DNA from: Eledone cirrhosa
Taxonomy: Eukaryota
DNA length: 64,000 nucleotides
Assembly: GCA_964016885.1 (NCBI GenBank)
Contig: OZ024752.1
Span: 47,492,001-47,556,000 of the forward strand
Direction of reading: 5' to 3'
The notes under the pieces were generated by a model that made no database searches, was not told the DNA's origin, and saw only the letters and a program-made list of their open reading frames with translations. Each line of letters begins with the position of its first letter. Within the stretch, counting starts at the first letter, position 1. Below are positions 4,554 through 56,771 of the stretch, piece by piece. The position numbers and the translations under genes were made by a program.

Positions 4554-4690
4554 AGGAGGTGAGTTTTATAAAGCAATGCAAATATCGGATAAGAAGCACT
4601 CAACAGTTTATAGGACTGGAGTATAAATAATATAAAATCAAAAATGTGCATAATAAAATACATGGAACTCTTTTAACCATCTTTTGATTT

Positions 4691-4692
<2 letters not shown>
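4554..4692. mobile_element. Truncated (TA)n-embedded element of hammerhead family F (inverted tail plus post-core arm)
   Basis: 'cataataaaatacatggaactcttttaaccatcttttg' matches 58803-58840. The left part is an inverted tail whose end matches 'taaaactcacctcct' near 46959-46973. Confidence 0.7.
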
Positions 4693-4753
<61 letters not shown>

Positions 4754-5202
4754 TAGATAGATAGACAGAAAAAGAAGACAGAATAAAAGTCCAAAATATA
4801 GATATTCAGAGAGATAAGGTAGAGACTAAGAGGAGTAGGGTGGTGTAGAAAAGAGCTAGGTTTTAAATGGCAGTTGAAGGACAATTGGTGGTGAATATGA
4901 TCCTTTCTTGAACAAGAGAAGAAGTTGTTAAGTGTTAATTGAAGGTAAAAGCCATTACGTTTAAATTTGAAGAGAAGATTCTGATAGACTTTAATTGAAA
5001 TATAGTTCCAGAGAATGTTTGTATGTAGTTGACAGATGTAATTTTAATTATTCCTTTTGCTCTACCAGTTTCAAGAAATCTTCCTCTCTATATTTCTATT
5101 TCACTGCTGTTTTAATTCATCAGAGCTCTATTTAACCCTTTTAATACCTGACTACTTTAACCTGCCCCCGATTCTAAAATAGAAAACTGTTTATTTTAAA
5201 GA

Positions 5203-5235
<33 letters not shown>

Positions 5236-5483
5236 TTGGTAAACGGAATAGAAAATGCTGACAAATTGTTCACAGTTGAAAAATGGTTTAATTAGGAATA
5301 AAAGAGTATTAGTGATTGTATGGGTTAGTATTCAGTTGTGGTTTTAAGTTTTTAAGTTTTTACCGGTTGCGCATTTCTAAATGCTTTTCAAAAATAATTT
5401 TGAGATAGAGTGTCCGTGCTGTTTGCTCTGATCAGTAATTGCTGGCCTTGTGCCTAAAGTAGAAACAATTATTACTATATATA

Positions 5484-6015
5484 TATATTTATTAAAATAA
5501 CAGATTAAAGTTTAAGCAAAGAATCGCTGATTTCACCCTTAACGGGATCTTCTGAAACTAACAAAGTCAATCTGTAAACGCAGAAGTGGATATTTCAAAA
5601 AACGTTGCAACCGGAGGAAGACAGGAAGATGATACTTTGGTTCGTGGAAACGTTCCCTGGCAAAGAACGGGAAAAAACGAATATAATACGTCATTAATAG
5701 GAGCGGTGAAAAGCAATTACGCGCAAAGACAGAACCACGTTTATGGTATAAAAGCCGCCGCAGACTAATGTTCTCTTAGGTGGTGCATAGAGCCGTTCTC
5801 TGGCAATGAACGGAAAAAACGAAGATAATATCCACTTCTGCGTTTACAGATTGACTTTGTTAGTTTCAGAAGATCCCGTTAAGGGTGAAAGCAACGATTC
5901 TTTGCTTAAACTTTAATCTGTTATTTTAATAAATATTTGCTCTACGGTTCTTATATATTTGATATATATTTATCCTTATCAAGCCCTCTTTGGATTTTAG
6001 TCTTCACATTTATTA
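5484..6015. mobile_element. (TA)n-embedded element family B with about 110-bp inverted arms
   Basis: 5484-5594 is the reverse complement of 5827-5937. TA tracts lie on both sides. A partial related copy is at 56047-56195. Confidence 0.8.
5862..5912 (+). ncRNA. Hammerhead-like fold with variant core CAGAAGA (family B); inverted copy at 5509-5559
   Basis: Stem I AGUUU/AAACU, core CAGAAGA, stem II CCC-GUUAA-GGG, GAA, stem III AGCAA/UUGCU, CUU triplet. Confidence 0.5.
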
Positions 6016-6147
6016 TTATATATATATATATATATATATAAAGGTAGAACACTGGAAGGTAATATCCGTAGTGGTAGAGCACTCAGTCCATGGGACGAGT
6101 TTGGTAAAAGTAGTAACACAACAGTTCACCTTACCGACAACGATTGT

Positions 6148-6186
6148 CCGAGCTGAAGACCCGTGAGGTGAAACAATTGTTCTCGG
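6148..6186 (+). ncRNA. Type I minimal hammerhead ribozyme (family A)
   Basis: CCGAG-CUGAAGA-C-CC(GUGA)GG-U-GAA-ACAAUUGU-U/CUCGG. Perfect 5-bp stem I, GNRA loop, palindromic stem III, GUU triplet. Confidence 0.8.
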
Positions 6187-6349
6187 TATGGTCAACTGTT
6201 GTGTTACTACTTCTATATTCACTTTATTATGGTCAGGCCGGGATACGGTTCACAAAATGAGGGGTCTCCTTGAAGATTGGACACCCTCACAGGGGTGGTG
6301 CACTTTTTCTGGTGCACCCTGTGTTGCAAACCAGCAGATGAAACTGCAG

Positions 6350-53718: not shown

Positions 53719-53748
<30 letters not shown>

Positions 53749-53750
<2 letters not shown>

Positions 53751-53829
53751 CAGGGGGTCCCAAAAATGTATACACACTTTAATTAGAGTGCTGTTGAAGT
53801 GTGTATACATCTTTCGGGGACACCCTGTA
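53749..53829. mobile_element. About 80-bp Tc1/mariner-like MITE with TA flanks; relative at about 41633-41736
   Basis: TA-CAGGGGGTCCCAAAAATGTATACACACTT ... AAGTGTGTATACATCTTTCGGGGACACCCTG-TA. Confidence 0.75.
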
Positions 53830-53911
53830 TATACAACTATATGCACCCTTCACTCATACAAACATACATAAAATGCATGATGAACACTATCTCTCTTGGC
53901 ATGTAGACACA

Positions 53912-53955
<44 letters not shown>

Positions 53956-54850
53956 CACACACACACACACACATGTGCCACCATGCACAAATGTGAAACA
54001 CACACACGCACTTAGGCTACCATACACAAATGTGAAACACACACACACACACATGCTACCATACACAAATGTGAAACGCACACACGCACATGTGCCACCA
54101 TACACAAATGTGTAACACGCACACACACACGTGCTACCATATACATATATGCACACACAAGTACGCATATATGCACCTATACACACGTACACATACACAC
54201 ACACACAAGTACGCATATATGCACCTATACACACGTACACATACACACACAAGTACGCATATATGCACCTATACACACGTACACATACACACACAAGTAC
54301 GCATATATGCACCTATACACACGTACACATACACACACAAGTACGCATATATGCACCTATACACACGTACACATACACACACACAAGGACACAGCAAACC
54401 AACAAAAACAAAGCCCCAAAAAACAAACTAAATGAAATATGACTAAATTCTAATGGTCATTTAGATGTTTGTATTTTTTGCCCATTTTTCTTCTCATTTT
54501 CTTCGTTGTTTTCCAATTTCCACCCCCCCCACCACCCATTGCTCCTCCAATTCATTATGCAATTTTAATTAGTTATTCGTCACAAGATCTTTTAATCAAG
54601 TATTAATGCAATGCTAATTCAAATTGTATTTTTACGCAGCTACCATTCCAGTAAACTGACCAACAAAAGCAGATTGTTTCATCAGTTTATTCTATTACTG
54701 GTTTAAATCATTAGACTGTGGCCATGCTGGGGCACTACCTTCTTTTACTGGTTTTCAGTCATTAGACTGCGGCCATGCTGGAGCACTACTTGGATTTCAG
54801 CTTTCAAATCAACCGAGTACTTATATTTTCAAGTGTGGTACTTATTTTAT

Positions 54851-55030
54851 TACCGTATTTCCTGGCGGCGAAGACACTTCGTCCTCGAGGATGCACCACC
54901 CTAATTTTGAAAACCAAAAATTTGAAAAAAAAAAATAATAAACAACCTTCGGCCTCCAGGATGCATGGTGGATATTTTTAGACTTATTTTAAGAAAAAAG
55001 TAGCATCTTTGATGCTTGGAAATTTGGTTA
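54851..55030. mobile_element. Degenerate pogo/Tigger-like MITE
   Basis: Starts TACCGTATTTCC and ends with degenerate GGAAATTTGGT. Confidence 0.4.
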
Positions 55031-55735
55031 ATCTCTTTTTGTGTCGGTCAAACCACTAAGTTACAGGAAATAAACACAGTCAAGCAAGACACGGTCACCT
55101 GACCTGGCATTGTCCACAACATGACAACCTGTCTAACCCATGCTAGCGTGGAAGAATGGTCGTAAAACAGTGATAATGATGATGCTAATGATGAAGCATA
55201 TCTGCACACACACACATATGATATATTAAAAACATTCAGGGTGCATTTTATTTAGAATTTTTACAAATGCTCAATATGTAAATAACTTTATAAAAATCAT
55301 AAAAGAGAATAAAGCCTTCTATTCAGACACATATTGTACAAATTACCACATGATTCTATGGTCATTTGTTTAAAAAATATAGACTTTTTTATACACCCTG
55401 TATATATACATACGATGATGATGATATATACAAAAAATTTGCAGACTTCAAATAGAGGGTGGGAGACACAATAACTATATATACATATATATAATTTGCA
55501 GAATTTATATAGAGGGTGGGAAACACAATAACCTTTTATACATCCTGTATATATATATCAAATTAAAAAACAGAATTAAAGAACACATTACTGATTTATA
55601 AAGAGCCCAGAATCTATTCCTTGAGCTCATTAAATTACAGGAGATTAAAGACTCACGTTAATCCCCTGTAATTTAATGAGCTCAAAGAATAGATTCTGGG
55701 CTCTTTATAAATCAGTAATGTGTACTTCTCTCTAT

Positions 55736-56029
55736 CTAAAAAAGTCTAAAGTCTGTCTTAAGCCAGAAGGCTCATTTGGCCGGTGCTTTTCCCAGTTTCA
55801 TGGCGTGAAGTGACTGAGAGTACAAGACTCCCCCCTGGACAGGACGCCAGTCCATCGCAGGGTTAAACCTCCAGTTATTGGTGGTACTCATTTTCAGCTG
55901 AGTAAACTGGAGCAACGTGAAATAAAGTGTCTTGTTCAAGGAAACAACACATCACCCGGTCCGAGAATTGAACTCACAACCTTTCGATTGCAAGTCCAAT
56001 GCTCTAACCACTAAGCCATGTGCCTTCAC
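55736..56029 (-). mobile_element. SINE with S2 head but a different 3' half; 12-bp target-site duplication
   Basis: ACTTCTCTCTAT at 55724-55735 and 56030-56041. The head matches S2 up to CTCAGCTG, then continues CCCTGCGATGGACTGGCGTCCTGTCCAGGG. Confidence 0.85.
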
Positions 56030-56771
56030 ACTTCTCTCTATATACTGAAAATCCAAAGCGGGTTCAATAAAGATAAATATATATCAAATATATAAGAACC
56101 CTAGAGCAAATATTTATAAAAAAAAAAAATAACAGATCAAGGGTGAAAGCAGCAATTCTTTGCTTAAACTTTAATCTGTTATTTTAATGAATATATATAT
56201 ATAGGGTTAGGTTCACCATAATATTTTAGGTGATTAGGGCCTCGAAAGGATTTAATCCAGCCCTGGGCTATACAGTGGGATCAAACTTGAACCTCATGAT
56301 TGTGAATCAATCTCTTTAACTACTCGACTCTTCTGTGTCTATTTCTGAACAGCACGTGACTATTACTTAACAACCTGAAACTATTACTTAGCAGCATGTA
56401 ATTAATAGTTAACAGTAATTATTGACTCAACACTAATGTTTGCAGTATTTATTTAGAAATTTACTATAAAACATATAAAAACAACATCCATTCTATTGCT
56501 TTATTTGACTAGTAATTAATTTAAAGTAGTTACAGTTAATGGATTAATTCTAGTCCTTTTTGAGATGGGAAAAAACTAGCTTTAACTGAAAATCATAATT
56601 AAGCTCTAGCTTTCACTCAGTGGGAGAAGAACCAGTATGAATTCCTTAACCCTTTTGATACGAAAGCACCTGAAACTCCTCCTCGTTCTTCAATAAAAAG
56701 CTGCTTATTTTAAATTGTTTATACTTATTTAAAAGAAAAACAACCCCACATCATAATTTTATATAAGAACA

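What the first reader, a model, noticed from the sequence alone, without database searches (positions are those of the whole stretch)
4554..56195. Shared inverted two-arm architecture with both 3' ends facing (TA)n
In families A-F one arm runs to the far 3' tail and a second, inverted arm stops earlier, usually at a TA shortly after the ribozyme. The family E copy at 32800-33050 shows the colinear order, ribozyme then tail. The copies at 22198-22490 and 46985-47347 are split near ATCGTA with the tail inverted. Family F does the same at 4554-4692 and 46782-46973. Inverted pseudo-LTR ends are known for Penelope-like insertions. Inference: both strands of a cut TA tract prime reverse transcription on TA-rich sites in the RNA.
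Basis: partly seen in the sequence, partly recalled or inferred. Interest (0 to 1): 0.75.

Follow-up and report, generated by a model that had tools for sequence, protein, structure and literature searches.

The report
Penelope insertions primed from both strands
These back-to-back repeats sitting in TA runs are shortened ends of Penelope-like jumping genes, and because one arm almost always stops at a near site and the other at a far site, they likely record two reverse transcriptases starting at two fixed points of one RNA from the two sides of a DNA cut.

Summary
The architecture is real. The window holds 10 head-to-head pairs and 4 single arms from five families. Four families (A, C, E, F) lie downstream of Hydra-clade Penelope-like RT–GIY-YIG coding sequence elsewhere in the genome.

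In 864 kb sampled by position, 219 of 238 arms end at one of two family-specific sites. All 90 pairs are head-to-head and same-family, and 80 of 83 classifiable pairs use one proximal plus one distal end (50% expected, p≈1e-20). In 26 of 71 pairs neither arm contains the other, which fold-back cannot make.

The best reading (inferred) is programmed twin priming on one RNA. An RCTC…GAGY hairpin lies 6–14 nt downstream of 8 of 11 sites.

Inverted copy plus tail, two RT start sites and both-strand extension are published for Penelope-like elements; the one-each coupling was not found in print. Empty sites were not obtained. The scan reported this system before on other DNA of this genome.

The parts
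4554..4643 (-). family F tail arm (starts about 7 nt 5' of the proximal site, 15-nt internal deletion, ends at the distal site on (TA)n)
4642..4692 (+). family F proximal arm, begins 3' of the ribozyme core, ends on (TA)n
5485..5826 (-). family A proximal arm, reaches about 200 nt further 5' than its partner
5827..6017 (+). family A distal arm with non-canonical hammerhead-like core (CAGAAGA at 5867, GAAA at 5887) and tail
6041..6215 (.). family B head-to-head pair; long arm on minus strand carries the RCTC/GAGY hairpin; not counted in the statistics
20186..20582 (+). family F single arm with about 260 nt more 3'UTR, ends at the proximal site on (TA)n
21712..21910 (.). family C pair: proximal arm 21770-21712 (-), distal arm 21772-21910 (+)
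21953..22155 (.). family D pair: distal arm 22085-21953 (-), proximal arm 22088-22155 (+); hammerhead cores at 22080 (-) and 22095 (+)
22198..22289 (-). family E tail-only arm, starts at the proximal site, ends at the distal site on (TA)n; followed by an ~19-nt duplicated filler
22308..22490 (+). family E proximal arm with hammerhead core 22390-22432, ends ATCG|TA
32798..33051 (-). family E (subfamily 1) single colinear pLTR arm, hammerhead core 32968-32927; 3' end lost at a SINE
33106..33243 (-). family C single distal arm, TA on both sides
42060..42252 (.). family D pair: distal arm 42187-42060 (-), proximal arm 42185-42252 (+), 3-nt overlap at the junction
46259..46452 (.). family C pair: proximal arm 46320-46259 (-), distal arm 46320-46452 (+)
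46468..46700 (.). further TA-bounded head-to-head pair (my family G); source element not traced, not counted
46782..46973 (.). family F pair: proximal arm 46945-46782 (-) with hammerhead core 46876-46828, tail-only arm 46945-46973 (+)
46985..47347 (.). family E pair: proximal arm ~47247-46986 (-), 11-nt local fold-back at the junction, tail-only arm ~47256-47346 (+) starting at the proximal site
56048..56194 (.). family A pair: long arm 56141-56048 (-) stops about 24 nt short of the distal site, proximal arm 56140-56194 (+)
58690..58845 (+). family F single proximal arm with hammerhead core 58752-58799, TA on both sides

Best explanation
The repeats are 5'-truncated ends (pseudo-LTRs) of several Hydra-clade Penelope-like retrotransposon families inserted in (TA)n, and each two-armed copy likely arose by programmed twin priming on one RNA.

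Proposed steps: (1) The RT-endonuclease, probably as a dimer, cuts both strands of a TA run (inferred). (2) One DNA end is extended from a proximal start site and the other from a distal start site 68-97 nt further 3' on the RNA (sites shown; priming inferred). Each start is likely set by a small RCTC...GAGY hairpin just downstream and helped by 1-7 nt of TA pairing. (3) The distal enzyme either stops at or before the proximal site, giving a tail-only inverted arm, or displaces the leading cDNA and runs on, giving overlapping arms (inferred). (4) The two cDNA 3' ends are joined through short complementarity or filler, then second strands are made (inferred). Both start sites lie 3' of the hammerhead cleavage position, so the template was uncut or religated there (inferred from the sequence).
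For: Source elements: a full element with inverted arm, 5' pLTR, RT-EN ORF and 3' pLTR (L031); intact 742-aa ORF (L066). The EN search had 62,609 first-look candidates, of which 150 were scored. Hydra-type ORF upstream of F, C and A ends.

Two ends per family: 219 of 238 arms. One-each coupling: 80 of 83 pairs, expected 50%, p about 1e-20. Targeted loci gave 147 of 156 (biased, may hold duplicates). A 170-kb hold-out gave 5 of 5 read by eye, one with an unresolved 630-nt middle.

Non-nested arms: 26 of 71, including multi-kb cases (L317, L320). Distal-arm 5' ends pile up at the proximal site: 18 within 14 nt versus 7 and 7 in equal flanking windows, p=0.006. No cross-family pair in 90. Arms of a pair differ by 3.4% versus 9.8% from other copies (51 pairs).

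Junctions are made anew: 43 distinct strings in 48 readable C pairs and 13 in 14 readable D pairs. Hairpin at 8 of 11 sites, background under 1.2%. PAc protein nicks and extends both strands and starts at two internal sites bounding the tail (PMC11167929). L1 twin priming gives deletions or duplications at the inversion point (10.1101/2024.08.27.596794).
Against: 45 of 71 pairs are nested and fit fold-back equally well. No empty site was obtained, so cut position, target duplication and whether the TA run pre-existed are unknown.

Arm similarity can come from gene conversion between inverted arms. It is weaker in the targeted set (3.5% vs 6.6%, absent in family A, 19 of 94 pairs below the median). 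Coincidence of the two 5' ends is only weakly above a within-family shuffle (43 vs 38.3 of 66, p=0.016) and is not significant for E, F and A alone. In several targeted loci the distal arm runs far beyond a short proximal arm (L002, L011, L026, L028; L307, L318).

Three of 11 sites failed the strict hairpin pattern. The template beyond the distal end is known only for E and A. PAc showed no strand difference in start-site use and no homology to the cut DNA in vitro (PMC11167929). 58 of 238 arms are single. An ORF link for D is only suggestive.
Confidence: 0.62

Rival explanations
1. Both strands prime, but on two separate RNA molecules, each protomer of a dimer holding its own RNA, with geometry forcing different start sites.
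For: Overlapping arms are the majority (54 of 71) and need no strand displacement. One locus (L006) has an inverted arm only 88% identical to its partner that diverges further in. PAc is predicted to be a dimer (PMC11167929).
Against: It gives no simple reason for 80 of 83 one-each pairs or for distal arms stopping at the proximal site (18 vs 7 and 7). Partners share subfamily variants, and no cross-family pair was seen in 90.
Confidence: 0.2
2. Single priming at the distal site, then the nascent cDNA folds back and copies itself until it meets the other target end at a TA-like motif (the proximal site).
For: 45 of 71 pairs are nested. C and D junctions cluster at ribozyme stems. Local fold-back fillers exist (47245-47276). 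Arms are nearly identical.
Against: It cannot make the 26 non-nested pairs or single proximal-ended arms (23 of 58 singles). The proximal site has the same downstream hairpin as the distal one, and D's proximal site has 1 nt of TA match.
Confidence: 0.12
3. Two independent insertions into one TA run, or later rearrangement or re-mobilisation of ready-made palindromes.
For: TA runs are reused by many families in the window (clusters at 21.7-22.5 and 46.2-47.4 kb).
Against: Independent neighbours are separated by TA and are of mixed families. Pair junctions have no TA, are same-family in 90 of 90 and head-to-head only. Junction strings are mostly unique.
Confidence: 0.04
4. MITE-like DNA transposons with terminal inverted repeats that target TA.
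For: Inverted repeats flanked by TA.
Against: Arm lengths and centres vary per copy, the two ends differ, single arms are common, and the sequences continue into RT-GIY-YIG ORFs.
Confidence: 0.01

Closest known systems
Hydra clade of C-terminal EN+ Penelope-like elements (Craig et al. 2021, PMC8557442; Hydra-1_Obim from Octopus bimaculoides is in its supplement)
   Same: Single RT + C-terminal GIY-YIG ORF, RW[KR], DKT, CxCX5C linker, CxxC and CxH, no CCHH, hammerhead near the 3' end, (TA)n target. The paper describes an inverted 5'-truncated copy and a one-sided tail for PLEs.
   Different: Tails here are 68-97 nt, not 30-40. Family E is about 4 kb because of a long 3'UTR, against under 3 kb. 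C and A have non-canonical ribozyme cores. In what I read the paper leaves the origin of the inverted structures undefined and gives no end-pairing statistics.
PAc (Poseidon of Anolis carolinensis) in vitro, Frangieh et al. 2024, PMC11167929
   Same: Both strands nicked and extended; two internal RT start sites that bound the tail; RNA 3' of the start needed; ribozyme cleavage not needed; AT-rich target; predicted dimer.
   Different: Different clade. The start site is reported as not homologous to the cut DNA, whereas here 6 of 7 sites have 3-7 nt TA matches. No strand-site coupling or explanation of inverted copies appears in the main text.
L1 twin priming (described in PMC2912911 and 10.1101/2024.08.27.596794; original Ostertag and Kazazian 2001 not read)
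   Same: Two target ends prime on one RNA, cDNAs join by microcomplementarity, both 3' ends face out, deletion or duplication at the inversion point.
   Different: In L1 the second site is any spurious match and overlap is the minority (17% in that preprint). Here both sites are fixed and internal, there is no poly(A), pairs hold 180 of 238 arms, and overlap is the majority.

Membership tests
Penelope-like element, EN+ | RT and GIY-YIG-type EN in one ORF | tested here: met
   742-aa ORF with YRDD and C-terminal EN motifs. Pfam itself gives only a sub-threshold RVT_1 hit on a fragment (E 0.0045) and no relevant hit on the full ORF; 208 homologues at E<=1e-20
Penelope-like element, EN+ | pLTRs from partial tandems; inverted 5'-truncated copy; one-sided tail | tested here: met
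   L031 4150-8656
Penelope-like element, EN+ | type I hammerhead in the pLTR | tested here: met
   canonical core and stems in E, F, D; non-canonical core in C and A; cleavage not tested
Hydra clade | RWK-like and DKT motifs, CxCX5C linker, CxxC and CxH, no CCHH, C-terminal EN | tested here: met
   E: all seen. A: RWR, DKT, linker, CxxC. F and C: YRDD, linker, CxxC (F also CxH); their N-termini were not recovered. Matches the published alignment by eye
Hydra clade | placement in an RT phylogeny with reference PLEs | not tested
   no tree built; membership rests on motifs and visual comparison
Hydra clade | family D linked to a Hydra ORF | tested here: inconclusive
   the partner arm in L228/L323 starts in a degraded EN-like stretch but is interrupted before a D end
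Hydra clade | (TA)n insertion preference | tested here: met
   207 of 238 arm ends vs 15.8% chance; pre-existence of the TA run not shown
Twin priming (L1 type) | both primers on the same RNA molecule | tested here: inconclusive
   pile-up at the proximal site and shared variants favour it; gene conversion and fold-back not excluded
Twin priming (L1 type) | target-site duplication around the whole insert | not testable with these tools
   target is a microsatellite; no empty allele recovered
MITE / TIR DNA transposon | fixed terminal inverted repeats and a matching transposase | tested here: not met
   ends differ, centres vary, partner protein is RT-EN

The most novel reading that the evidence does not exclude
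Penelope-like elements integrate mainly by a dedicated twin-priming reaction: a dimeric RT-endonuclease reads two like hairpins on one RNA, assigns one start site to each strand of a double cut, and builds the insertion inward from both ends. The class-wide 'tail' and inverted pLTR would then be one phenomenon, and twin priming would be the normal route for this class rather than an accident as in L1.
Probability: 0.45. Interest if true: 0.72.

Novelty: new variant of a known kind. Interest (0 to 1): 0.5.

Why it matters
The elements are ordinary members of a described clade, and the inverted-copy-plus-tail shape is published. What the copies add is a countable rule: one proximal end, one distal end, each just upstream of the same small hairpin. 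Craig et al. call the origin of PLE tandem and inverted structures undefined, and Frangieh et al. leave the steps after initiation open. The rule turns that open question into direct tests (hairpin mutants, barcoded RNA mixing, paired strand read-out) for which an intact ORF and template are at hand. It also tells annotators that these abundant palindromes in this genome are retroelement ends, not MITEs.

Tried and rejected
Rfam at gathering threshold found only a tRNA-like SINE head, no hammerhead; ribozymes were found by pattern. A 68-nt family D query found nothing in the genome search; a longer one worked.

Empty sites: no RNA holder listed. Four contig sets laid on 45100-47760 broke at TA runs, and none bridged an insertion from flank to flank. 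The repeats themselves are also present in runs labelled organisms B and C. A search for paralogous empty sites among 212 TA-flanked pairs returned 13 hits, nearly all chance neighbours or local duplications. Only L222 looked usable: an F pair in a repeat whose other copies have about 10-14 nt of TA, with 26 and about 48 nt now on its sides. One case cannot separate slippage from synthesis. A search for TA-bounded inserts inside longer repeats gave 2 uninformative hits.

Templates beyond the distal end of F, C and the main D subfamily were not found in 20 extended loci. Junction microhomology was only described, not tested: overlap of 1 nt or more in 41 of 66, blunt in 6, filler in 19, from BLAST ends. 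No fold, complex prediction or tree was run.

Literature: 'twin priming' + 'Penelope' gave 3 papers (listing seen, one opened and it only cites the term). Searches showed no paper applying twin priming or site-strand coupling to PLEs. [quoted passage not shown]
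Full report
Setting. The window is G000:C12:47492001-47556000 in a 3.0-Gb animal assembly. It looks octopus-like: the best named homologue of the element's protein is from Argonauta hians. Family labels A-D are mine; E and F follow the coordinates in the finding.

Observation. Self-alignment and a hammerhead pattern scan, then mapping on natural reference copies, give 10 head-to-head pairs and 4 single arms of families A, C, D, E and F in the window. Nine of the 10 pairs have both 3' ends on (TA)n, one at a far and one at a near site. 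At 22198-22490 and 46985-47347 the tail arm starts where the other arm ends. The copy at 32798-33051 is colinear on the minus strand and cut by a SINE.

What the sequences are. Two of the 30 fetched best E copies ran on past the tail. Extending them gave a complete element: inverted arm, 5' pLTR, RT-EN ORF, long 3'UTR, 3' pLTR (L031). Intact 742-aa ORFs exist (L065, L066). They carry RWR, DKT, YRDD, CxCX5C, CxxC and CxH and lack CCHH, the marks of the Hydra clade (PMC8557442 section 11). F, C and A ends also lie downstream of such ORFs; D is suggestive only. The 'tail' is the start of the next unit's 5' region, so the ends are internal points of a tandem or permuted transcript. Hydra-1_Obim, with a (TA)n preference, is already listed for Octopus bimaculoides.

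Counts. I took 864 kb by position: the window, 400 kb of neighbours, and 20 places of 20 kb on 13 other small contigs. It holds 238 arms: 111 proximal-ended, 108 distal-ended, 19 other. 207 are TA-flanked against 15.8% by chance. 180 arms form 90 head-to-head pairs, all same-family, with no tail-to-tail or direct neighbours under the same rule. Of 83 pairs with both ends classed, 80 are proximal+distal, 2 proximal+proximal and 1 distal+distal; independent choice predicts 50% (p about 1e-20). Seven pairs with an unclassed end were left out. Targeted loci gave 147 of 156 (biased, with possible duplicates). A 170-kb hold-out, mostly from large contigs, gave 5 of 5 read by eye, plus one unclassifiable pair.

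Were the arms templated separately? Of the 80 pairs, 9 have an unresolved middle. Of the other 71, 45 are nested, 9 overlap with the proximal arm reaching further 5', and 17 have a tail-only distal arm. In those 26 neither arm contains the other, so fold-back cannot be the only route. L317 and L320 show the same with kilobases of ORF in the proximal arm. Junction strings are nearly all different: 43 in 48 readable C pairs and 13 in 14 readable D pairs, with 25 and 19 pairs lacking the anchor. Junctions are therefore made per insertion.

One RNA or two? For one RNA: distal arms tend to stop at the proximal site (18 within 14 nt, 7 and 7 in flanking windows, p=0.006). They rarely overshoot the partner (1 of 66 versus 3.9 shuffled, p=0.006). 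Partners are closer to each other (3.4%) than to other copies (9.8%) in 51 pairs. Against: the 5'-end statistics are not significant in E, F and A alone. Gene conversion could homogenise arms. The effect is weak in the targeted set and absent in A. Several targeted loci show large overshoot, and L006 has a divergent partner.

What sets the start sites? The template after the end matches alternating TA for 3, 6, 7, 1, 3, 4 and 3 nt at the seven main sites where it is known (E near, E far, F near, D near, C near, A near, A far; p about 2e-5; sites were picked after seeing the data). Longer TA runs nearby are mostly unused, and D prefers a 1-nt site over a 5-nt one. Following a lead from an earlier scan note (e1-9506642), I found a complementary RCTC...GAGY hairpin starting 6-14 nt downstream of 8 of 11 sites, including both far sites with a known template, with background under 1.2%. 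The misses were one copy with a mismatched outer pair, A's near site (candidate stem with a long loop, mutated in the copy used) and a divergent D far site. Predicted stabilities are low (-3.4 to -8.4 kcal/mol), so protein binding is presumed, not shown.

Mechanism. Shown: identity, two ends, orientation, coupling, non-nested arms, motif spacing. From the literature: a PLE protein nicks and extends both strands, starts at two internal sites bounding the tail, needs RNA 3' of the start and not ribozyme cleavage (PMC11167929, main text read). In L1, twin-primed cDNAs anneal by microhomology and can overrun the internal primer (passages). Inferred: a dimer cuts a TA run, gives one start site to each strand on one uncut RNA, the trailing enzyme stops at or displaces the leading cDNA, and the cDNA ends are joined. 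I put this at 0.62, two RNAs at 0.20, and fold-back as the main route at 0.12.

Not shown. No empty allele was recovered, so the cut, any target duplication and the prior length of the TA run are unknown. No activity was tested and no tree was built.

Papers seen. PMC8557442: abstract, introduction, section 11, passages, supplement hits. PMC11167929: parts 1-2 of 4, passages, supplement search without hits. 10.64898/2026.07.22.740005, PMC4209133, PMC2912911 and 10.1101/2024.08.27.596794: passages only. PMC3649969: one reference entry. Searches showed no paper stating site-strand coupling for PLEs; subscription and older papers are not covered.

Verdict. Known clade and known architecture, with a sharper, testable rule. 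The scan has reported the same system on other DNA of this genome; those notes are not independent support. Interest 0.5.

Noticed in passing
L145-L146 (G000:C9:15005900-15008100): Two-armed array of 311-nt hammerhead units (4 cores on minus, 2 on plus), each arm ending at a different point on (TA)n: a retrozyme-like concatemer with the same end rule.
   Followed up: partly
L071 minus strand, ORF of 496 aa (7566-9053); copy in C12 neighbours: A second RT-GIY-YIG family unlike Hydra, with CxxxxCxxC-type linker and internal cysteines, probably Neptune- or Naiad-like.
   Followed up: no
window 5867-5890 and family C upstream (L254, L318): Conserved non-canonical hammerhead-like cores (CAGAAGA in 51 of 53 A matches; CTGAGAAG or TTGAGAAG in C) in abundant families.
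   Followed up: partly
L222:816-1320: F pair inserted in a repeat whose other copies have about 10-14 nt of TA; flanks now 26 and about 48 nt. Could be slippage or TA addition at insertion.
   Followed up: partly
window 55579-55727, 49031-49125, 42701-42888, 53751-53827: Other inverted repeats not bounded by long TA runs; 42701-42888 and 53751-53827 look like short DNA-transposon ends (impression from the sequence, not tested).
   Followed up: no
window 19960-20125: Another hammerhead family (core 20006-20030) ending on (TA)n or (CA)n; 12 hits in the 864-kb sample.
   Followed up: no
PMC8557442 supplement, DNA record printed just before Hydra-1_Obim (name not shown): Its 3' end holds a GCTC...GAGCAC stem after the hammerhead, suggesting the hairpin is shared with published Hydra elements; read by eye only.
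   Followed up: no
window 7862-12013 and 36949-37817: 72-nt minisatellite arrays in opposite orientations with related flanks at 12011-12156, 35998-36157 and 36796-36952.
   Followed up: no
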